From Planctomycetota bacterium (GTDB taxonomy: Bacteria > Planctomycetota > UBA1135 > UBA2386): a DNA stretch of 64,000 bases. The notes under the pieces are model-generated. The model made no database searches. It was not told the DNA's origin and saw only the letters and a list, made by a program, of their open reading frames with translations. The DNA lies in assembly GCA_044230075.1 (NCBI GenBank), contig JBGARS010000016.1, positions 533 to 64,532 of the forward strand, in the 5' to 3' direction. Of this stretch, positions 11,069-19,153 are shown in pieces. Position 1 is the first letter of the stretch. Each line of letters begins with the position of its first letter. The position numbers were made by a program, and so were the translations under genes.

Positions 11069-13246
11069 TCAGACGATGCGCTCGATGACGTCGACGCGAA
11101 CGCGGATCGGCCCCGTCGGCGAAGGCATCTCGCCGAACTCACCGACTGCCTTGCCGAGCAGCCCCTGCGCCATCGGCGCCAGGTAGTTGATCGTGTGGTC
11201 GTCGGTGATGTCCCACGGACCGAGCACCCGGTAGGTGTGCTTGCGGCCGGAGGTTTCCTCGGTCAGCGTGATCTTCGTGCCGGGGGCGACGCGATCGTCG
11301 GGCACGTCCTGCTCTTCGATCAGCCGCACGCTGCGCAGCTGTTGGTCCATCGTCTGCGCGCGACCGGTGAGGTTGCGCTGCTCTTCCATCGCCGACTCCC
11401 ACTCGCTGTTCTCGCTGAGGTCGCCGAGTGAGGCTGCGGCACCGATGGCCTTGCTGTTGGCGGGGATCTTCTCCTCGACCAGGTCGCGGTAGTCGTCGCG
11501 CAGCCGCCGCAGACCCTCGCGCGTGGTGAAGATCTGGTCGCGTTCCCAGAACGGCACGTCGGGCTTGGCGTGGATGTCCGGGTAGTGGTCCGCGACGGTC
11601 CGGTCGATCATGTCGACGATCTCGAGCGGGAAGTCCTCGCCGGCGCGCACGCAGATGCCGACGTACTGCGTGAGGTCGTCGCGCGAGATGCCGTCGAGCG
11701 AGAGGTTCAGCAGACCGCGTTTGCCGGTCAGCAGGCTGGTCAGGCGCCCGAGCAGGCGGCTGTGCAGCTGGTTCTTCTTGCGGTCGGCGTTCAGCACGCG
11801 GCCGAGGTGCAGCAGCACGCGGCCGACGGCGACCGGGTTCGGCCGCAGCTCGGCGCCCTCGAAGACGCCGTCGCAGTACAGCTTGCCGAGCAGGTAGATC
11901 AGCATCGGGAAGCGGTTCGGGTAGGGCGCAACCCGATCCCACATCGGCAGGCACAGCATGCCGTTGCCGGTCGACGTCAGCTTGTCGACGATGTTCTCGA
12001 CCACCGAGTTGGGCCACTCGGTGAGCATGACCGCGCACTGGTCGGCCCAGTTGTCGCCGAGCGACTTCGGCAGCAGTTCGACCGCGTGCACGCGCGAAGC
12101 CTGCGTCGCCAGCCGGTCGATCGCGACCGGGACCAGCGTGCCGTCTTCCTTCAACAGCAGCTGCTTCAGCTCGTCCGCGGCTGCGATCGAGGCGCGGCGA
12201 CCGTTCTCTTCGAGGAACAGGATGCCGTCGAGGATGTGCGCGTGCGTGGCCTTCTTCTCCTCGATCGCCTGCTCGACGACCTTGGTCGCGAGTCCGAGGA
12301 TCTGCGTGCGGACCTCCTCGTCCTGGCCGCGCGCGAGGTAGTCGCGCAGCACGCCGATGCGCTGGCCGAGGTCGTTCTGGTGCCGCAGCGTGTTGGTGGC
12401 CTCTTCGACCAGGCCGACCGGCTTGTCGCGCAGCAGGAACACGGGGCGCGTCGTCGAACCCTCGACCTTCAGCCACGGATCCTTCGCCGCGGCTGCCTTG
12501 GCGCGCTTCCAGAACGCTGGCCAGGCCTTCTCTTCGATGATCGTTCCGCACAGCTCGGTCTTCACCTGGGCACTCGTGATGGTGCCGCGGTAGAGCGTCG
12601 CGGTGCGCCGGATCAGGCCGCTCGGGTCCTGCGCCGCTTCGACCCGCAGCGCGTCCATGTGCTGCAGCTTCATCGCCCGCAGGTCTTCGGCGTCGAGCGC
12701 CTTGAAGCGCGTGAGCAGCGTGTCGAGCGGGAAGTGCTCACGCCGGCCCGTGGCGAAGCGCACCGTCGTGTCCTCGGTCTCGGCCGAGAAGCCCTCGACC
12801 TGGCCTTCGCCCCAGCCGGCGCCGTGGTAGACGACGTGGCCCTTGGTGTAGCGGCGCAGGCGGTCGAACTCGAGGATCGCCTGCACGCTTGCCGACTGCA
12901 GGCCGGCGCGCGTCTTCAGCACCGAGAACCACGGCTCCTCGCCGTAGCTCTTCTCGATCAGTCCGGCGACCGTGATCGTCAGCGCTTCGTTGTGCGCGCT
13001 GCGGCGCATGACGCGGAAGCCGAGCTCCATCGCGGCGTCGGTGTGACCCTTCGCCGCGAGCGCATCGATCATCGTGCTGGCAAGGCCCAGGGCGCGGCTC
13101 GCCATGTCCTGGTCGCACAGAAGGTCGATCGCCTTGGCGTAGAGACCGGTGTCCTCGGCCCGGGGGGCCTTCGCAGCCTGCCCCCAAGCGGTGTCGAGGT
13201 CGTCGAATTGGAGGGAACGGGCGAGCTGGACGAGGTCGTTCGTCAC
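11069..13246 (-). CDS. greA: Extended GreA/GreB transcription elongation factor (~725 aa)
   Basis: C-terminal GDLSENSEW, VAPGTKI, INYLAPMAQGLLGK; about 570-aa helical N-terminal extension; GTG start at 13246 chosen. Confidence 0.88.
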   Translation of the reverse strand: MTNDLVQLARSLQFDDLDTAWGQAAKAPRAEDTGLYAKAIDLLCDQDMASRALGLASTMIDALAAKGHTDAAMELGFRVMRRSAHNEALTITVAGLIEKSYGEEPWFSVLKTRAGLQSASVQAILEFDRLRRYTKGHVVYHGAGWGEGQVEGFSAETEDTTVRFATGRREHFPLDTLLTRFKALDAEDLRAMKLQHMDALRVEAAQDPSGLIRRTATLYRGTITSAQVKTELCGTIIEEKAWPAFWKRAKAAAAKDPWLKVEGSTTRPVFLLRDKPVGLVEEATNTLRHQNDLGQRIGVLRDYLARGQDEEVRTQILGLATKVVEQAIEEKKATHAHILDGILFLEENGRRASIAAADELKQLLLKEDGTLVPVAIDRLATQASRVHAVELLPKSLGDNWADQCAVMLTEWPNSVVENIVDKLTSTGNGMLCLPMWDRVAPYPNRFPMLIYLLGKLYCDGVFEGAELRPNPVAVGRVLLHLGRVLNADRKKNQLHSRLLGRLTSLLTGKRGLLNLSLDGISRDDLTQYVGICVRAGEDFPLEIVDMIDRTVADHYPDIHAKPDVPFWERDQIFTTREGLRRLRDDYRDLVEEKIPANSKAIGAAASLGDLSENSEWESAMEEQRNLTGRAQTMDQQLRSVRLIEEQDVPDDRVAPGTKITLTEETSGRKHTYRVLGPWDITDDHTINYLAPMAQGLLGKAVGEFGEMPSPTGPIRVRVDVIERIV

Positions 13247-13462
13247 GTGGCCAGGTGCAGTTTGAAGGTGCGAGGAAATGGGCGGGAGACGATACCTGTC
13301 GCGTCCGCGCATGGCCAGTCTCAACCGAGGCTCCTGCCAAGGTCACAGGAAATGCTCCCCCGCGGCGGCTTCGGCGGTGGCCGGCGGCGCTCCCTGGGCG
13401 CGTTCCGCGCGCATGCGCCCGGTTTCCCGGGGTCGTGGCCGGCCGACCCCGCCTGCGGGCCG

Positions 13463-14191
13463 CTATTCCGCGAGCCGCGCGATCAGCGTGTTCACGTTCG
13501 TTGCCGAGCAGGACTCGTCGAACGACGCCAGCGGCACCTCGTCGAGCACCTCGTCTTCGGCGACCATGATCACGTAGAACTCCTGCCCATACTGGCCGCG
13601 GAACGCGACGATCTTGCGCAGGATCGGCGTCTTGGCGTCCTCGACGCCTTCGATGACCACGCTCTTGCCTTCGCGGCCGCGGCCGCGCAGCACGATCATC
13701 GGTGCGTAGGCGGCCACCAGGCCTTCGCTGTAGCGCACTTCGTAGTGGCGGGGGCTGTGGCTGTGCACCACGCCGGCGATGCCGAGCCGGTTGCAGAGCT
13801 GCTGTTCGAGGCGATTCGACAGCAAGCGGCCGCCACAGCGGCCGTAGCCGGCGCCGCCGCCACCGTGTGCCATCAGGACGTCGTCGTCGTCCAGGTTCGC
13901 CACCGCACGCGGCACGAACGCCGGCCGTGCCGCCGCGGCACGGGCGCCGGCCTTGGGCTGGCGCAGCGCGGCGGGGCCGCTCCGAGCCTTGCGGGTGCCG
14001 TTGCCACCGGTTGCCGGCGGGGTCTTGCTGGCTTCGGACTTGCCACCGGCAGGCCTGGGCGTGCGCGACTTCGCGCTCGGAGTCTTCGTGCTCGGGGACT
14101 TTGCGACGCCGAGGGCGCCGTCGGCCTTCGCGGGCTTCGGGCTGGGTTTGCTGGCCTTCGTTGGGGACTTGCTGGGTGCTCTCGTCGGCAT
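13463..14191 (-). CDS. Hypothetical protein: Lys/Ala/Pro/Ser-rich basic N-terminus plus degenerate PD-(D/E)XK-like C-terminal domain
   Basis: ATG at 14191; low-complexity basic first ~95 aa, then SNRLEQQLCNRL...YAPMIVL...VVIEGV. Confidence 0.7.
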   Translation of the reverse strand: MPTRAPSKSPTKASKPSPKPAKADGALGVAKSPSTKTPSAKSRTPRPAGGKSEASKTPPATGGNGTRKARSGPAALRQPKAGARAAAARPAFVPRAVANLDDDDVLMAHGGGGAGYGRCGGRLLSNRLEQQLCNRLGIAGVVHSHSPRHYEVRYSEGLVAAYAPMIVLRGRGREGKSVVIEGVEDAKTPILRKIVAFRGQYGQEFYVIMVAEDEVLDEVPLASFDESCSATNVNTLIARLAE

Positions 14192-14435
14192 GGAGGTGTG
14201 TGTGGTGTGTGTGTCGGTGCCGGTCGGTCCTCGCCGGCGATGCGCCATGCCGCAACCAAACAGTGTGGCTTGGGCGGCTGGGAGGCGAGGATCCGGCGGC
14301 GGTCCCGAGGCAGGTGCGTCGGCGAGCAGCGTAGCAGAATCGAACCCACCGGGAAGCCCCGACGCAGCGTGCGTAGGCTCACCGCCGGTGCCATCGGCAG
14401 TGGTTTCCGCCGCGTTCTGCCCGCACACTGCGCGC

Positions 14436-14984
14436 ATGACGAAGGCCACCGGCCCGACTTCGGAGCCGACCCCGGCCCCGCGGCAACGCGTGCTGACGCT
14501 GCCGCTGGTGGTGTTCCTGGTCGGCGTGCTGCTGGTGCTCGGTTACGCGGCGCGGCTGGCGCTGGTGCCGCCGACGGCGGCGCAGGCGATCGTGCTGTTG
14601 GCGGACGGCGACGCCGACGCCGAGGAGCGGCAGCGGTTGCTGCGCATCCTGGTGCAGCAGGGGCAGGTGAGTCCTTCGATCGGTGAGCGTTGGGCAGGCG
14701 CAGTGGCCGCGGTCGCGCTCGAAGACCGCGACGGACTGGCCGCAGTGCGGCATGGATTGGGTGACGGCGATGTTCTCAAACCGTTGCCAGCAAGCCAGGA
14801 ACGAGAGTTCCTCCACCTGGGTGACCCGCTGCTCGGCAACCTCGCCGCCGCCTGGCTCGCCGAGGCTGCCGGTGACCGCGAAGCAGCGCTCGTGCACTGG
14901 CGCCAGCTGGCGGCCCAGTGCCGGTTCGTGCCCCACCCGTTGGCCGCCGAACTCGCCGCCGCCGGGGTCCAGCGGACCGGCTGA
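14436..14984 (+). CDS. Hypothetical single-pass membrane protein
   Basis: One TM helix LPLVVFLVGVLLVLGYAA followed by a helical domain; CACACT-N6-ATG start context. Confidence 0.65.
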   Translation: MTKATGPTSEPTPAPRQRVLTLPLVVFLVGVLLVLGYAARLALVPPTAAQAIVLLADGDADAEERQRLLRILVQQGQVSPSIGERWAGAVAAVALEDRDGLAAVRHGLGDGDVLKPLPASQEREFLHLGDPLLGNLAAAWLAEAAGDREAALVHWRQLAAQCRFVPHPLAAELAAAGVQRTG

Positions 14985-15076
14985 AGCCCGGCCGACACGG
15001 CCGGTGACCAGCCCCGGTCGCCCTCAAGGCCGATGTGCCGCAACGCCGATGCTGTCGGACGGAGGCACGCTGGCGC

Positions 15077-16369
15077 ATGGAAGACATCAGGTTGGGAGCA
15101 ATCCTGCTGGAGGGCGGGGTCGTCGACGAAGCCGGGCTCGAGCGGTGCCTGGCCATCCAGTCCCTGACCGGCGGGGCGCGTCCGCTCGGTCAGGTGCTGG
15201 TCGAACAGGGCCTGATCGGGACCGAGGACCTGCAGCGCATCCTCGATTTGCAGCGCACGCGGGTCGCGCGGCGGGCGGCCGAGGTGCAGGACACCGACGT
15301 CGGCTGTGGCGCCCTGCTGCAGGCGGCGGGTTGCCAGCGCGCGACCGAGATCGTCGTCAGCGAAGGGCGCCCCGTGCGCATGCGCGTCGCCTGTGAATGG
15401 CGCCAGCTGACCAACGAGTCGCTGCGTGGCCCCGAGGTGTGGGAGTTCGTGCGCGAGCTGATGGGCACCGAGGTGCTCGAGATGCTCGCCGAGCGGCACT
15501 TCGTCGTGCACGCGTGGGATCGCGGTGACATCGGCCGCGGCTCCGCGACCGCGTTCCGCCAGTTCGACGGCGTCGCCGTGCGCGTGACCTTCGCCGCCGC
15601 CGAGGCCCCGACCGCCGAAGCCGCCAGCCTGCCCGCGAGCCTCGTGCAGATCGTGCAGGGCGGCAAGGGCCTCGTGCTGATCACTGGCGAACGTGGCATC
15701 GGCCGCGCTGATGCGCTGGCGCCGATGGTGCAGCTCGCGGCGCGCCAGAACGACCACTACGTCGTCGTGATCGACGACGAGCCGCTGCCGCTGCCGACCA
15801 CCGGGGCGCTGGTCGTGCGCCGGCGCTTCGGCATCTCGCCGGCCGAACGCGCGGCGACGCTGCGCAATGTCGTGCGCGAGGATCCGGACACCCTGGTCAT
15901 CGCCGACGTCGGCAGTCCCGAGACGTTCGAGCTGGCGCTGCGTGCGGCCGAAGGCGGCCGGCTCGTGATCGCCTACATGGACGCCTGCACGGCGCCCGCC
16001 GCGCTCGTGCGCGCACTGAACTTCTACCCGACCTACGACCTGCCGCGCGTGCGTTCGACGCTGGCTGCCGTGCTGCGCGCCGTGCTGGTGCGACAGATGC
16101 TGCCCGACGTGGCGCACGAGGGCACCGTCGCCGCCACCGAGTTCCTGCTGGTCGACGACGCGGTGCGCGAGGTCGTTCGCAGCGGCGAACTGATGGACCT
16201 CGGTCTGCTGATCCGCGCCGAGGGCAGCCGCTGTGGCCACTCGCTGGATCGTTGCATGCTCGAACTGCTCGTCGCCGGCCGCGTGCGCATGGAAGACGTC
16301 TTCGCGCGGGCCGAGGAGAAGGCCTGGCTGCTCGAGCGCACCAAGGACCTGCAAGCCAACACCAGGTGA
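15077..16369 (+). CDS. MshEN-domain PilT-family protein with degenerate ATPase motifs
   Basis: Tandem RLGAILLEGGVVDEAGLERCLAIQ / PLGQVLVEQGLIGTEDLQRILDLQ. PilT-like body with GERGIGRAD in place of Walker A. SD GGAGG at 15061-15065. Confidence 0.85.
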   Translation: MEDIRLGAILLEGGVVDEAGLERCLAIQSLTGGARPLGQVLVEQGLIGTEDLQRILDLQRTRVARRAAEVQDTDVGCGALLQAAGCQRATEIVVSEGRPVRMRVACEWRQLTNESLRGPEVWEFVRELMGTEVLEMLAERHFVVHAWDRGDIGRGSATAFRQFDGVAVRVTFAAAEAPTAEAASLPASLVQIVQGGKGLVLITGERGIGRADALAPMVQLAARQNDHYVVVIDDEPLPLPTTGALVVRRRFGISPAERAATLRNVVREDPDTLVIADVGSPETFELALRAAEGGRLVIAYMDACTAPAALVRALNFYPTYDLPRVRSTLAAVLRAVLVRQMLPDVAHEGTVAATEFLLVDDAVREVVRSGELMDLGLLIRAEGSRCGHSLDRCMLELLVAGRVRMEDVFARAEEKAWLLERTKDLQANTR

Positions 16370-16372
16370 CCC

Positions 16373-17452
16373 GTGGACACGCAACGACTCGAAACCCTGC
16401 TCGCAGCCATGACCCGTGTCGGCGCCTCGGCGCTGCACCTCGTGCCCGGCCGTTCGCCGGCCTTGCGCGTCCAGCGCCGCTTCGTCGCCGGTGACGAGAT
16501 GCCGGTGCAGGCGACCGACATCGACGAGCTGACGCGGGACATGCTGTTCTCCGATCACCGCGACCGACTGGAACACAGCGGTCACGTCGAAGTGCTCTAC
16601 GTCGCGCGCAGCGGCAAGCGGTACCGGGCGACGGTCGCCGACATCGGTGGCGCGGGTTCGCTGGTGCTGCGGCCGCTGCCCGAGGGCACGCCGAAACTGG
16701 ACAACCTCGAACTGCCGGAGCAGGTCGGCTCGTTCGCACGCGGCCGCAGTGGCTTCGTGCCGGTCGCCGGCTTCTTCGGCTCCGGCAAGAGCACGACGCT
16801 CGCGGCGCTGGTCGGCGTGCTGAACCAGGACCCGACGCGGCACATCGTGACGATCGAGGACACGATCGAGTTCGTGCACGAGAACGGCGCCGCACTGCTG
16901 CACCAACGCGAGGTGGGCACGCACGTCGCGACCGCGGCAGCAGGCATCCAGCAGGCCGTGGCCACGGGCGTCGATGCGATCGTCGTCGGCGAGATCCGTG
17001 ACGGCGAGACGCTCGACGCAGCGATCACGGCCGCCGAGTCGGGCTGCCTCGTCTTCGGCGGCGTCGAGGCCGGCTCGATCGTCGGCGCGCTCACCGAACT
17101 GTCCCTGATGGTGCCCGTCGAGGAGCGGCCGCGGTTGCGCGTTCGCCTGTCGCGCGTGCTGCGCGGCGCCCTGGCGCAGAGCCTGCTGCAGCGTTCCCAC
17201 CGTGCCGGGCGCGTCGCGGTCGTCGAGATCCTGGTCGCCAACCCCGCCGCGCGCGCCGCGATCCGCAATGGCAACCTGCAGGACCTGCACGCGATCATGC
17301 AGCGCTGCCGTGGCCTCGGCATGCAGACGTCGGACATCGCCCTGCGCGCGCTGCTGGCGCGGCACCTGGTCACGCAGGAAGAGGCGCTGCTGCACGCGAC
17401 CGACCGCGACGAAGTGCTCGCCCGCGGTCCGATGTCGGCCCCCGGTCGCTGA
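16373..17452 (+). CDS. pilT: PilT/PilU-family ATPase
   Basis: ASALHLVPG.SP, Walker A GFFGSGKST, TIEDTIEF, QREVG, Walker B IVVGEIRD, AAESG. Confidence 0.85.
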   Translation: MDTQRLETLLAAMTRVGASALHLVPGRSPALRVQRRFVAGDEMPVQATDIDELTRDMLFSDHRDRLEHSGHVEVLYVARSGKRYRATVADIGGAGSLVLRPLPEGTPKLDNLELPEQVGSFARGRSGFVPVAGFFGSGKSTTLAALVGVLNQDPTRHIVTIEDTIEFVHENGAALLHQREVGTHVATAAAGIQQAVATGVDAIVVGEIRDGETLDAAITAAESGCLVFGGVEAGSIVGALTELSLMVPVEERPRLRVRLSRVLRGALAQSLLQRSHRAGRVAVVEILVANPAARAAIRNGNLQDLHAIMQRCRGLGMQTSDIALRALLARHLVTQEEALLHATDRDEVLARGPMSAPGR

Positions 17453-17625
17453 ACCGCACCCGGTGCGGGCTGCGTGCCGCCGGCGGCCATCCGGTCGATG
17501 GCATCGGTCTCACGGCGCCAACGCTCCCGGCCGACGAGTGTCGTCGATCCCGACGGTGTGGATGCGCCGCCGGTGACATGGGGTTCTCCCGCATGCCGCG
17601 AGCGACGATTCTCGGCGATCGACTC

Positions 17626-17652
17626 TCAAGCGGTGGCTCGGAAGGCCGAACA
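17626..17652 (+). promoter_or_regulatory. Sigma28 (FliA/SigD)-type promoter of flagellin
   Basis: TCAA (17626-17629)-N15-GCCGAACA (17645-17652) versus consensus TAAA-N15-GCCGATAA, 65 nt before the flagellin ATG. Confidence 0.75.
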
Positions 17653-17717
17653 TCCCATGGAGCCGGGGAATCGAAGCCCTGGTTCGACAGTCGGCGAACA
17701 CGGAGAGGCAAAGGAAC

Positions 17718-18548
17718 ATGGGACTCAGGGTCAACACGAACATCGCATCGATCAATGCGCAGCGGAACACGGCGCAGGTGACGACGCGACTTGCACGCAA
17801 CTACCAGCGGCTGTCCACCGGCCTGCGCATCTCGACCGCCGCGGACGACGCGGCCGGTCTCGCGATCTCCGAACGGCTGCGGGCGCAGGTCCGTTCGTTG
17901 GGACAGGCGTCGCGCAACGCCAACGACGGCATCTCCCTCGTGCAGGTGGGCGAAGGCGCGCTCAACGAGGTCAGCAACATCCTGGTGCGGTTGCGCGAGC
18001 TGTCCATCCAGTCGGCGAACGGATCGTCCTCGAACCAGGATCGCAACACGATCAAGGAGGAGTTCGACAGCCTCGTCGGCGAGATCAACCGCATCGCGCA
18101 GTCGACCGAATTCAACGGCGTCAAGCTGCTGGACGGGTCGTCGAGCACGGTCACCTTCCAGGTCGGCATCAACTCGATCGCCGGCATCGACACGCTCAAC
18201 GTGTCGCTGGCGCCGTCGCTCAGCACCTCGCTCGGCCTGTCGACGCTCGACATCGGCTCGGGCGGCAACACGTCGTTCGCGATCGCACAGATCGACAACG
18301 CCGTCAACTCGGTGTCCGGTCTGCGCGGCAAGTTCGGTTCGCTGCAGAACCGCCTGCAGTCGACGATCGCCAACCTAGGTGTCGCCGCCGAGTCGCTGTC
18401 GGCCGCCGAGAGCCGCATCCGCGACGTCGACGTCGCCTACGAGACCGCGGAACTGACGCGCAACAACATCCTGCAGCAGGCATCGATCTCGATCTTGTCA
18501 CAGGCCAACGCGCAGCCGCAGGCCGCCCTGCAGCTGCTGCAGCGCTAG
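17718..18548 (+). CDS. fliC: Flagellin, minimal (276 aa)
   Basis: MGLRVNTNIASINAQR, QRLSTGLRISTAADDAAGLAISE, NANDGISLVQ, SRIRDVDVAYE, ILQQA...QANAQP. Confidence 0.97.
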   Translation: MGLRVNTNIASINAQRNTAQVTTRLARNYQRLSTGLRISTAADDAAGLAISERLRAQVRSLGQASRNANDGISLVQVGEGALNEVSNILVRLRELSIQSANGSSSNQDRNTIKEEFDSLVGEINRIAQSTEFNGVKLLDGSSSTVTFQVGINSIAGIDTLNVSLAPSLSTSLGLSTLDIGSGGNTSFAIAQIDNAVNSVSGLRGKFGSLQNRLQSTIANLGVAAESLSAAESRIRDVDVAYETAELTRNNILQQASISILSQANAQPQAALQLLQR

Positions 18549-18560
18549 TCACCTGAGCCC

Positions 18561-18591
18561 GCCCGGTAGCGACGCTGTCGTCGCGCCGGGC
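18561..18591 (+). terminator. Hairpin downstream of fliC
   Basis: GCCCGG-ta-GCGACG-ctgt-CGTCGC-g-CCGGGC; no clear U tract. Confidence 0.45.
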
Positions 18592-18637
18592 GCCGATCGC
18601 TTGCGCCGATCGCCCGCGCGTCGTCTGCTTCGCCGGC

Positions 18638-19153
18638 GTGCGACGACCCGACCCGAACGATCACCCGCCGTCCTTCCAGCCGTACATCGATCGTGTGCCC
18701 GACGGCGACCTGCTGCAGCATCTCGAGCGGCAGGGTCTGGCGACGGTGGCGCTGCTGGGGACCGTCGACGAGGCCCGCGGCGCGTCAACCTACGCGCCCG
18801 GCAAGTGGAGCATCAAGCGCGTGCTGCAGCACGTCACCGACGGCGAACGCATGTTCTGCTACCGCGCGCTGTGCATCGCGCGCGGCGAACAGGGCAACCT
18901 GCCGCCGTTCGACGAGGATCGCTACGCCGCCCTGGACGGCAGCGACGGCCGCACGCTGACGGACATCACAGCCGAGTTCGCCAGCGTGCGGCGCGCGACG
19001 CTGCTGTTGTTCGCGGGCTTCGACGCAGCCGCGTGGCAGCGCCGCGGCACCGCGAACGGCAAGCCGGTCGCCGCGCGCAGCCTGCCGTGGATCGTCGCTG
19101 GCCACGAGCTGCACCACCTGACGGTGCTGCGCGAGCGCTACGGCGTCGGCTGA
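18638..19153 (+). CDS. DinB-family protein
   Basis: YAPGKWSIK.VLQHVTDGER and AGHELHH motifs. Confidence 0.88.
   Translation: MRRPDPNDHPPSFQPYIDRVPDGDLLQHLERQGLATVALLGTVDEARGASTYAPGKWSIKRVLQHVTDGERMFCYRALCIARGEQGNLPPFDEDRYAALDGSDGRTLTDITAEFASVRRATLLLFAGFDAAAWQRRGTANGKPVAARSLPWIVAGHELHHLTVLRERYGVG

What the first reader, a model, noticed from the sequence alone, without database searches (positions are those of the whole stretch)
15077..16369. MshEN c-di-GMP receptor fused to a catalytically dead PilT
Seen: a near-perfect tandem MshEN motif at the N-terminus. In the PilT body, Walker A is GERGIGRAD (no GKS/T), the Asp box is IDDEPL, Walker B is VIADVG (no catalytic Glu) and the His box is RLVIAYMDA (no His). 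Established: MshEN binds c-di-GMP and is normally found on extension ATPases (MshE/PilB/GspE), not retraction ATPases. Inference: a pseudo-ATPase subunit that gates its neighbour PilT in response to c-di-GMP, beside a sigma28 flagellin, i.e. a possible undescribed surface/swim switch.
Basis: partly seen in the sequence, partly recalled or inferred. Interest (0 to 1): 0.8.

Follow-up and report, generated by a model that had tools for sequence, protein, structure and literature searches.

The report
Dead PilT with c-di-GMP sensor head
An uncultured wastewater planctomycete carries a conserved copy of the pilus-retraction motor PilT that has lost its ATP-burning residues. It keeps a small c-di-GMP-sensor head, is always encoded with a second PilT-like gene, and sits behind a flagellar-type promoter, so it is probably a signal-sensing regulator rather than a motor.

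Summary
Window 15077-16369(+) encodes a 430-aa protein ("A"). Its first ~60 residues carry the tandem MshEN c-di-GMP-binding motifs, and the model superposes on c-di-GMP-bound MshE at about 1 Å. Its body has the PilT fold, but Walker A, Asp box, Walker B and His box are all replaced.

The loss is old and under purifying selection (dN/dS 0.05-0.37). A is a single-copy orthologue across one GTDB family of Planctomycetota.

- MshEN-PilT fusions are not unusual. Relatives with fully canonical motifs exist.
- In all 47 loci examined, A is followed directly by a second PilT-like gene ("B", 16373-17452). The dead form descends from an intact two-gene cassette.
- B is not a normal PilT. It has no His-box histidines, and in other lineages it also lacks the Walker B Glu or the Walker A Lys.
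- Flagellin adjacency is lineage synteny. The pair survives in relatives that lack FlhA and flagellin.
- A-B does carry a conserved promoter word, CTCAAG-N16-GCCGATGC. The same word precedes flgB-flgC-fliE.

Best reading: a c-di-GMP-sensing, non-catalytic PilT-like adaptor or regulator that works with B on type IV pilus dynamics. It is a new variant of a known kind. c-di-GMP binding, oligomer state and target are untested.

The parts
15023..15052 (+). Promoter-like word CTCAAG-N16-GCCGATGC, 24 nt upstream of the A start codon (sigma-28/FliA-WhiG-like, with a spacer 2 nt longer than the flagellin promoter)
   Evidence: Conserved upstream of A in all 27 close loci and in deep degenerate members. 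Not found upstream of the intact outgroup cassettes, except for an AGCAAG-N16-GCCGATAC variant that I saw by eye in L052. The exact word occurs 4 times in the genome against 0.06 expected. One copy lies directly upstream of flgB-flgC-fliE on contig C56.
15077..16369 (+). Gene A: 430-aa MshEN_N + PilT-fold pseudo-ATPase (the finding)
   Evidence: AF2 model pLDDT 81.5. Foldseek top hits are PilT/PilU, TM (target) 0.73-0.87. Single-copy orthologue in one GTDB family.
15089..15253 (+). Tandem MshEN c-di-GMP-binding motifs: motif I residues 5-28, spacer 29-35, motif II residues 36-59
   Evidence: Regex test. phmmer hits to PilF GSPII-C (25 bits) and MshE 5htl (E 9e-4). Domain model pLDDT 86; Foldseek top 9 hits are all c-di-GMP-bound MshE or PilF GSPII-B, rmsd 1.0-3.0 Å (six of them 1.0-1.3 Å) over 49-61 residues.
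15686..15712 (+). Former Walker A, now GERGIGRAD (no Lys, no Ser/Thr); E205 and R206 invariant in the family
15770..15787 (+). Former Asp box, now IDDEPL
15887..15916 (+). Former Walker B, now DTLVIADVGS (catalytic Glu replaced by Asp)
15953..15985 (+). Former His box, now GGRLVIAYMDA (both His lost); lies within the invariant ALRAAEGGR block
16373..17452 (+). Gene B: 359-aa PilT-like partner. Walker A GFFGSGKST, Asp box IEDTIEF and Walker B DAIVVGEIRD are intact; the His box is SGCLVFGGVEA (no His). It starts 3 nt after the A stop, in the same frame (TGA CCC GTG).
   Evidence: Always adjacent to A.
17625..17652 (+). Separate sigma-28-like promoter of the flagellin gene: CTCAAG-N14-GCCGAACA
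   Evidence: The CTCAAG -35 word and a CCGA-type -10 core align in nearly all of 20 loci. Coordinates checked.
17718..18548 (+). Flagellin (276 aa), one of about 5 flagellin paralogues in the genome
14415..14984 (+). Upstream single-pass membrane protein of unknown function. It is syntenic within the family but lies outside the A-B promoter; membership in the module is doubtful.
   Evidence: Absent from the outgroup cassettes.

Best explanation
A is a non-catalytic descendant of a PilT-type retraction ATPase. It keeps the PilT fold and an N-terminal MshEN_N four-helix module that most likely binds c-di-GMP.

A is made together with B, a PilT/PilU-like protein that in this genome still has Walker A and B motifs but no His-box histidines. 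The two genes form one operon behind a sigma-28-like promoter of the kind that also drives flgBC-fliE.

Proposed mechanism: the A ring, or an A/B assembly, docks where PilT docks at the base of a type IV pilus machine and acts as a c-di-GMP-dependent adaptor or competitor. It would recruit, position or block B, and through B (or in place of the true PilT or PilB) set pilus retraction and extension in the motile cell stage. This would parallel ATPase-dead PilT, which still lets PilU drive retraction.

Shown: the motifs, the folds, conservation under selection, the obligate A-B cassette, its descent from an intact cassette, and the promoter word.

Inferred: c-di-GMP binding, A-B contact, the pilus as target, and sigma-28 control.
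For: Dead motifs on a PilT fold.

MshEN_N module:
- Strict plus relaxed motifs, rare in the genome.
- The domain model superposes on c-di-GMP-bound 5HTL at 1.0 Å.

Functional, not decaying:
- Invariant replaced motifs and dN/dS 0.05-0.37.
- 75 of 91 family genomes have a match at E<=1e-30, about 60 of them full-length single-copy hits.
- Metatranscriptome contigs cover parts of the gene.

Obligate pair:
- A is followed by B in 47 of 47 loci, including distant intact cassettes in unrelated neighbourhoods.
- The A and B trees mirror each other.
- The genes are 3 nt apart.

Order of decay: L040 and L042 keep the Walker A Lys but have lost the Walker B Glu, and the whole family has lost the Lys.

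c-di-GMP and pili are present in the genome: 6 GGDEF genes, 3 PilZ genes, 5 PilB/GspE-like ATPases, 3 canonical PilT/PilU and about 5 PilC-like platform proteins.

Precedent: PilT Walker A/B mutants still support PilU-powered retraction, whereas a pilT deletion does not (PMC6821130; PMC6762196).

Promoter.
Against: - No binding, oligomer or phenotype data exist, and no cultured member is known.
- The module lacks the C-terminal subdomain of MshEN. Its spacer is 7 residues, not 5. It scores just under the NCBIfam cut-off.
- No pilus gene is near the cassette in any lineage, so the pilus target rests on homology alone.
- B is itself degenerating. It has no His-box histidines here. In other lineages the Walker B Glu is lost in about 13 of 46 B orthologues. 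The Walker A Lys is lost in L036, L058 and L063. A model in which A regulates B's ATPase therefore cannot hold everywhere.
- The spacer of the A promoter is 2 nt longer than the sigma-28 consensus and the flagellin promoter. The sigma factor is not identified, and the genome has two FliA/WhiG paralogues.
Confidence: 0.5

Rival explanations
1. A and B form one mixed hexamer (for example A3B3) in which dead A subunits alternate with live B subunits, like the non-catalytic and catalytic subunits of F1/V1-ATPases. c-di-GMP binding to A would then tune a three-site motor. A is a built-in subunit, not a separate adaptor ring.
For: - Obligate adjacency, likely translational coupling and mirrored phylogenies.
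- Both keep the PilT fold.
- The Walker B Glu was lost before the P-loop Lys, as in other non-catalytic paralogues that first keep nucleotide binding.
Against: - PilT and PilU, the closest studied pair, form separate homohexamers (PMC6821130).
- No mixed hexamers are known in this ATPase family.
- In some lineages B has also lost catalytic residues, which leaves such a motor without active sites.
- Multimer modelling was not possible with these tools.
Confidence: 0.2
2. The pair acts on the flagellum, as a c-di-GMP-controlled brake, clutch or export regulator. It would be functionally like YcgR/MotI, and the flagellin next door would be part of the same unit.
For: - Flagellin is immediately downstream in 20 of 24 close loci.
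- The A-B promoter word is identical to the one upstream of flgB-flgC-fliE.
- The promoter is found with the degenerate cassette and not with the intact outgroup cassettes, apart from a possible variant in L052.
Against: - Genomes G001 and G002 have no detectable flagellin or FlhA. On a single contig, the stretch between their two FliA-type genes is much shorter than in the flagellated genomes. Both still keep A-B and its promoter.
- Flagellin has its own promoter.
- The whole block, including GreA-like, signal peptidase and LepA genes, is syntenic, so adjacency carries little weight.
- No PilT-family protein is known to act on flagella.
Confidence: 0.12
3. The cassette has left motor work altogether. 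A and B together form a c-di-GMP-binding scaffold or sink, possibly with a new ligand site in the former P-loop (GERGxGR, an RxxxR pattern). Its target would be neither pilus nor flagellum, for example holdfast or polysaccharide secretion or a cell-cycle step.
For: - Catalytic residues of B are also lost in several lineages, while both proteins stay conserved.
- The replaced Walker A is itself invariant (E205, R206, G207, G209, R210).
- No pilus genes are nearby.
- The same promoter word also precedes sugar-modifying genes and a stand-alone MshEN-domain protein.
Against: - This is pure inference. No alternative target is indicated by gene context.
- In this genome B keeps intact Walker A, Asp box and Walker B.
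Confidence: 0.15
4. A is a decaying, functionless duplicate of pilT.
For: All four catalytic motifs are lost.
Against: - The frame is intact in about 60 species over deep divergence (31-90% identity).
- The replaced motifs are invariant.
- dN/dS is 0.05-0.37.
- The model is confident.
- Transcript fragments were found.
Confidence: 0.02

Closest known systems
PilT-PilU tandem retraction ATPases of type IVa pili (V. cholerae, P. aeruginosa, A. baylyi; PMC6821130, PMC6762196)
   Same: Two adjacent PilT-family genes. The first can be catalytically dead and still be needed for the second to work: engineered PilT Walker A/B mutants support PilU-driven retraction. Both share the PilT fold.
   Different: - Here the first member is naturally and anciently dead in all four motifs and carries a c-di-GMP-sensor head.
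- B does not group with the genome's PilU-like protein in the tree and lacks the His-box histidines.
- No link to a pilus has been shown.
MshEN-bearing extension ATPases: V. cholerae MshE (5HTL), T. thermophilus PilF GSPII-B/-C, PilB of Chloracidobacterium and Myxococcus (PMC5013675, PMC11731258, PMC6957770)
   Same: - The same tandem 24-residue motifs and four-helix bundle. The closest is PilF GSPII-C, which has the same Pro-initiated motif II.
- The module is N-terminal to a secretion-family ATPase.
   Different: - Those are active PilB/GspE-type extension motors with the full ~145-aa MshEN domain.
- Here only the ~60-aa N-subdomain is present. It is fused to a PilT-type body (no PilB N1 or zinc domains) that cannot hydrolyse ATP.
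Intact MshEN_N-PilT + PilT cassettes of Planctomycetota and Myxococcota MAGs (e.g. P0158/L041, L047, L052, L056, L057; P0173 and P0257 named only 'PilT')
   Same: Same architecture, same two-gene order, and the same A clade in the tree.
   Different: - Their A subunits have canonical Walker A, Asp, Walker B and His boxes and AISNLIRE.
- They lack the CTCAAG-N16-GCCGAT promoter word, apart from a possible variant in L052.
- None has been studied.
Dead MshEN-PilB-like protein upstream of PilT
   Same: The theme is the same: a c-di-GMP-sensor head on a catalytically dead secretion-family ATPase, encoded directly upstream of a PilT-like gene.
   Different: - Those are PilB/GspE-type bodies; this one is PilT-type.
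- The paper only reports the gene arrangement. The dead motifs are claims of earlier AI notes that I did not test.
c-di-GMP receptors built on degenerate enzymes (FimX, LapD, PelD, FleQ)
   Same: The same general logic: an enzyme fold that has lost catalysis and serves as a c-di-GMP-controlled regulator of surface organelles.
   Different: The folds and binding sites differ. In those proteins the dead domain itself binds the ligand, whereas here a separate MshEN_N head does. This comparison rests on my own knowledge, not on a tool result.

Membership tests
MshEN c-di-GMP-binding domain (Wang et al. 2016; Pfam PF05157; NCBIfam NF053729) | Two tandem 24-residue motifs RLGxx(L/V/I)(L/V/I)xxG(L/V/I)(L/V/I)xxxxLxxxLxxQ | tested here: met
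   Motif I is strict. Motif II fits the authors' relaxed motif with Pro at position 1. Key residues are invariant or >=90% conserved in the family.
MshEN c-di-GMP-binding domain (Wang et al. 2016; Pfam PF05157; NCBIfam NF053729) | Five-residue spacer between the motifs | tested here: not met
   The spacer is 7 residues (SLTGGAR). PilF GSPII-C aligns without gaps and also has a Pro-initiated motif II, and it binds c-di-GMP (PMC11731258).
MshEN c-di-GMP-binding domain (Wang et al. 2016; Pfam PF05157; NCBIfam NF053729) | Four-helix-bundle N-subdomain fold | tested here: met
   Domain model pLDDT 86 with four helices. The Foldseek top 9 hits are all c-di-GMP-bound MshE or PilF GSPII-B, rmsd 1.0-3.0 Å (six at 1.0-1.3 Å), 36-41% identity. 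E-values are weak because the domain is short.
MshEN c-di-GMP-binding domain (Wang et al. 2016; Pfam PF05157; NCBIfam NF053729) | C-terminal alpha/beta subdomain of the ~145-aa domain | tested here: not met
   The PilT N-domain match begins at residue ~80. Pfam PF05157 gives no hit.
MshEN c-di-GMP-binding domain (Wang et al. 2016; Pfam PF05157; NCBIfam NF053729) | Profile score above the curated cut-off | tested here: inconclusive
   NF053729 scores 37.6 bits against a cut-off of 38.
MshEN c-di-GMP-binding domain (Wang et al. 2016; Pfam PF05157; NCBIfam NF053729) | Binds c-di-GMP | not testable with these tools
   Needs DRaCALA or ITC.
PilT/PilU type IVa pilus retraction ATPase (TIGR01420) | PilT two-domain fold | tested here: met
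   Foldseek: PilT/PilU TM (target) 0.73-0.87, probability 1.0.
PilT/PilU type IVa pilus retraction ATPase (TIGR01420) | Family profile score above the cut-off | tested here: not met
   160 bits against a cut-off of 319 for A. B scores 276, also below the cut-off.
PilT/PilU type IVa pilus retraction ATPase (TIGR01420) | Walker A GxxGxGK(S/T), Asp box, Walker B hhhhGE, His box with two His | tested here: not met
   All four are replaced in A. B keeps the first three and lacks both His.
PilT/PilU type IVa pilus retraction ATPase (TIGR01420) | AIRNLIRE motif of PilT | tested here: inconclusive
   A has AVREVVRS and B has AARAAIRN. Intact outgroup A subunits have AISNLIRE.
PilT/PilU type IVa pilus retraction ATPase (TIGR01420) | Powers or supports pilus retraction | not testable with these tools
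   No genetics are possible, and no pilus genes lie in the neighbourhood.
Sigma-28 (FliA/WhiG) dependent promoter | TAAA-N15-GCCGATAA-like -35 and -10 elements with about 15-nt spacing, upstream of flagellar genes | tested here: inconclusive
   The flagellin promoter (TCAA-N15-GCCGAACA) fits. The A promoter has the same elements with a spacer 2 nt longer. It is identical to the flgB-operon word and strongly over-represented. The sigma factor was not identified, and two FliA-type genes are present.

The most novel reading that the evidence does not exclude
A whole two-ATPase PilT cassette has been converted into a pseudoenzyme signalling module and moved into the flagellar (sigma-28-type) regulon. 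In the swimming cell stage the dead, c-di-GMP-gated PilT mimic would occupy or release the pilus platform, linking 'stop swimming' to 'start pulling'. The invariant GERGxGR that replaced the P-loop may be a second ligand site. This would be an undescribed class of pilus regulator (a 'motor mimic'). It would be related in logic to the dead MshEN-PilB + PilT pairs that this scan has seen in several phyla.
Probability: 0.25. Interest if true: 0.75.

Novelty: new variant of a known kind. Interest (0 to 1): 0.6.

Why it matters
How c-di-GMP reaches the retraction side of type IV pili is poorly understood. The known MshEN receptors are active extension motors.

A naturally dead PilT carrying an MshEN head, co-inherited with a second PilT-like protein, is the natural counterpart of the laboratory finding that ATPase-dead PilT can still serve PilU.

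The family shows a graded series, which makes it a good case of pseudoenzyme evolution in a hexameric motor family:
1. An intact cassette.
2. Loss of the Walker B Glu.
3. Loss of the P-loop Lys.
4. Decay of the partner.

The shared promoter word with flgBC-fliE gives a testable link between swimming and surface organelles in planctomycetes. These bacteria are reported to have a swarmer/sessile life cycle (my own knowledge).

In practical terms, these genes are currently named 'PilT' or 'TadA' in databases, which is misleading.

Tried and rejected
- Pfam gave no MshEN hit for A. The module was established through NCBIfam, PDB sequence search and a domain model instead.
- Literature searches for MshEN + PilT, for PilT + c-di-GMP + Planctomycetes, and for degenerate PilT paralogues found no description of this protein. 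The Leptospira MshEN survey was irrelevant.
- Flagellum-dedicated role: weakened by the FlhA- and flagellin-less relatives that keep the pair.
- Conserved third gene: the neighbours of the outgroup cassettes are unrelated (SMC, EF-P, SOD, PfkB, acyl-CoA dehydrogenase), so none exists. The upstream membrane protein is family-specific and lies outside the promoter.
- Sigma-70 promoter and intrinsic terminator scans found nothing in 14300-18800.
- M. xanthus MXAN_6705/6706 are adjacent PilT paralogues, one with a long N-terminus (PMC13584747). They could be the same cassette. My search from a Myxococcales MshEN-PilT returned mostly Polyangiales and Sandaracinus proteins. The three cultured-type sequences I read (P0371, P0389, P0353) have a different N-terminal extension. 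The lead is unresolved.
- RNA evidence: only short metatranscriptome contigs over parts of A, none spanning the A-B junction. Co-transcription is not shown, and DNA carry-over cannot be excluded.
- Modelling an A-B complex was not possible, because the tool is single-chain and reports no PAE. I considered folding the in-frame read-through fusion and rejected it as uninformative.
Full report
**What is there**

Window 15077-16369(+) is a 430-aa ORF, here called A. A longer frame opens at GTG 15035. All orthologues begin M-[ED]-[DE]-x-R-L-G at the ATG. A GGAG lies at 15061-15064. The GTG falls inside a conserved promoter word (see below).

Pfam sees only T2SSE (PF00437, 56 bits). NCBIfam gives the PilT/PilU family at 160 bits, against a cut-off of 319. 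It also gives the 53-residue 'c-di-GMP_motif' model NF053729 at 37.6 bits, against a cut-off of 38, on residues 5-58.

phmmer against PDB aligns residues 80-413 to PilT and PilU:
- Walker A: GPTGSGKST -> GERGIGRAD.
- Asp box: IEDPIEF -> IDDEPL.
- Walker B: DVIMVGEMRD -> DTLVIADVGS.
- His box: TGHLVLSTLHT -> GGRLVIAYMDA.

The AF2 model (pLDDT 81.5) has the PilT fold. Foldseek puts PilT, PilU and PilT4 on top, with TM (target) 0.73-0.87.

**The N-terminal module**

- Motif I (residues 5-28) meets the strict MshEN motif.
- Motif II (residues 36-59) meets the authors' relaxed motif. It starts with Pro and follows a 7-residue spacer rather than a 5-residue one.
- The closest solved sequence is T. 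thermophilus PilF GSPII-C. It aligns without gaps, its motif II also starts with Pro (P335), and it binds c-di-GMP about as well as MshEN.
- A 72-residue domain model (pLDDT 86) is a four-helix unit. Its nine best PDB matches are all c-di-GMP-bound MshE (5HTL, rmsd 1.0 Å over 56 residues) or PilF GSPII-B.
- In the six-frame translation of the whole genome, the strict motif and the tandem relaxed motif each occur only twice.
- The C-terminal subdomain of the full MshEN domain is absent.

**Conservation**

Homologues of 57-90% identity, all from uncultured Planctomycetota, keep the replaced motifs. E205, R206 and ALRAAEGGR are invariant, as are the MshEN key residues.

Pairwise dN/dS is 0.05-0.37 for A and 0.05-0.32 for the next gene.

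In GTDB-based genome searches the orthologue is confined to the window's own family:
- 75 of 91 family genomes have a match at E<=1e-30.
- About 60 of these are full-length single-copy hits, at 31-90% identity.
- No genome of the other families of the same order has a match at 1e-40.

The organism occurs in wastewater, sludge and bioreactor metagenomes. Short metatranscriptome contigs cover parts of A.

**The partner and the cassette**

Gene B (16373-17452) starts 3 nt after the A stop (TGA CCC GTG, same frame). It is PilT-like, with an intact Walker A, Asp box and Walker B, but its His box reads SGCLVFGGVEA.

In every one of 47 loci examined, the MshEN_N-PilT gene is directly followed by a B-type gene.

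A profile search of 1.8 billion representative proteins showed that the architecture is much wider than this family. Many ~430-460-aa MshEN_N-PilT proteins have fully canonical motifs. Where context could be read, these too are followed by a B gene, among unrelated housekeeping genes.

A tree puts all A subunits in one clade (SH-aLRT 90). Five intact members are sister to a degenerate clade (support 99). The A and B subtrees mirror each other.

The motif table shows an order of decay:
- L040 and L042 keep the P-loop Lys but lack the Walker B Glu.
- All members of the window's family lack the Lys (GE.GSG[VILR], and GERGxGR in the crown group).
- B lacks the first His everywhere and the second His in most of the family.
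- B lacks the Walker B Glu in about 13 of 46 loci.
- B lacks the Walker A Lys in at least three loci (L036, L058, L063).

A few genomes of the family hold an intact cassette, either alone or beside the degenerate one. The window's genome has none. Its three canonical PilT/PilU genes lie elsewhere.

**Flagellin and promoters**

The block from the alpha/beta-hydrolase, GreA-like and hypothetical genes, through the membrane protein, A, B and flagellin, to signal peptidase and LepA is syntenic across the family. Adjacency to flagellin therefore says little. Flagellin is missing at this position in 4 of 24 close loci.

Two of those genomes (G001, G002) have no detectable flagellin. One weak FlgL-like hit is the only exception. 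They also have no FlhA. Their two FliA/WhiG-type sigma genes lie only 2-6 kb apart on one contig. In the window's genome they are 16 kb apart, with FlhA between them. Yet both genomes keep A-B. The pair is thus not dedicated to the flagellum.

Flagellin has its own conserved promoter, CTCAAG-N14-(G/T)CCGA.CA (window 17625-17652).

- The word CTCAAG-N16-GCCGATGC (15023-15052) is conserved in all 27 close loci and in deep degenerate members.
- It was not found before the intact outgroup cassettes, apart from a possible AGCAAG variant in L052.
- The exact word occurs 4 times in the genome against 0.06 expected.
- One copy lies directly upstream of flgB-flgC-fliE.
- Near-identical words precede a methyltransferase, an RmlC-type epimerase and a stand-alone MshEN-domain protein.

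A-B is therefore probably its own operon in a sigma-28-like regulon shared with flagellar genes. This rests on motifs only.

**Mechanism**

The genome has c-di-GMP turnover and pilus machines:
- 6 GGDEF genes
- 3 PilZ genes
- 5 PilB/GspE-like ATPases
- about 5 PilC-like platform proteins

The best precedent comes from V. cholerae and A. baylyi. There, PilT Walker A/B mutants still allow PilU-powered retraction, whereas a pilT deletion does not. PilT and PilU form separate interacting hexamers.

I therefore read A as a natural, c-di-GMP-sensing, ATPase-dead PilT that serves as an adaptor or competitor at a pilus platform together with B. The decay of B in some lineages argues that catalysis is not the conserved core of the module. 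It keeps a pure scaffold or regulator reading alive.

**Novelty**

I found no paper describing this protein. Earlier notes of this scan report dead MshEN-PilB-like proteins upstream of PilT in several phyla, and the same planctomycete pair in another genome. The Geobacter mshE-pilT3 arrangement is in the literature as a gene order only.

This is a new variant of known parts and logic, not a new kind of system.

Noticed in passing
G000 contig C112:37185-40907 (-), outside the window: The only other protein in the genome with a tandem MshEN motif. It is a ~1200-aa protein. By eye it reads as a DUF4388/PatA_N-like N-terminus, then MshEN_N (also with a Pro-initiated motif II), then TPR-like helices, a membrane segment and a C-terminal beta-propeller-like region. 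It is a possible second c-di-GMP receptor of unknown output.
   Followed up: partly
G000 contig C147:~24815-25460 (+), outside the window: A 203-aa stand-alone protein with a weak MshEN (PF05157) hit. It is preceded by the promoter word CTCAAG-N16-GCCGATGA, the same class as upstream of A and flgB.
   Followed up: partly
window 17653-17717: The flagellin 5' leader has blocks conserved across 20 loci (GGATCGAAGCCGG..., CAGTCGGCGAATCA, AGGCAAAGGA at the ribosome-binding site). The GGA-containing leader could be a CsrA/FliW-type translational control site.
   Followed up: no
G000 contig C11:56713-73880, and G001 C42 / G002 C123: Each genome of the family that I checked has two FliA/WhiG-family sigma genes above the curated cut-off. 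Relatives that have lost FlhA and flagellin keep both, so these sigma factors probably control more than flagella.
   Followed up: partly
window 16367-16375: A and B are in the same reading frame, separated only by TGA CCC. Read-through of the TGA would give an A-B fusion. The gap and frame differ in other loci, so this is probably incidental.
   Followed up: partly
window 11069-13324 (-): A 751-aa protein with GreA/GreB N- and C-domains only at its C-terminus (residues 599-748), behind a long N-terminal region. It is conserved and syntenic across the family, and its orthologues are annotated with HTH_GRAD.
   Followed up: no
window 13463-14449 (-): A 328-aa protein with no Pfam hit. Its Lys/Ala/Pro-rich N-terminal half is followed by a conserved C-terminal domain. 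It is divergently oriented to the membrane-protein/A-B side and syntenic in all loci. Another first-reader note discusses it.
   Followed up: no
loci L036, L058, L063 (related genomes): In these lineages both A and B lack the Walker A lysine (for example A TDRREPRSW with B GGFGSRRDD in L058). There the whole cassette is non-catalytic, yet both frames remain intact.
   Followed up: partly
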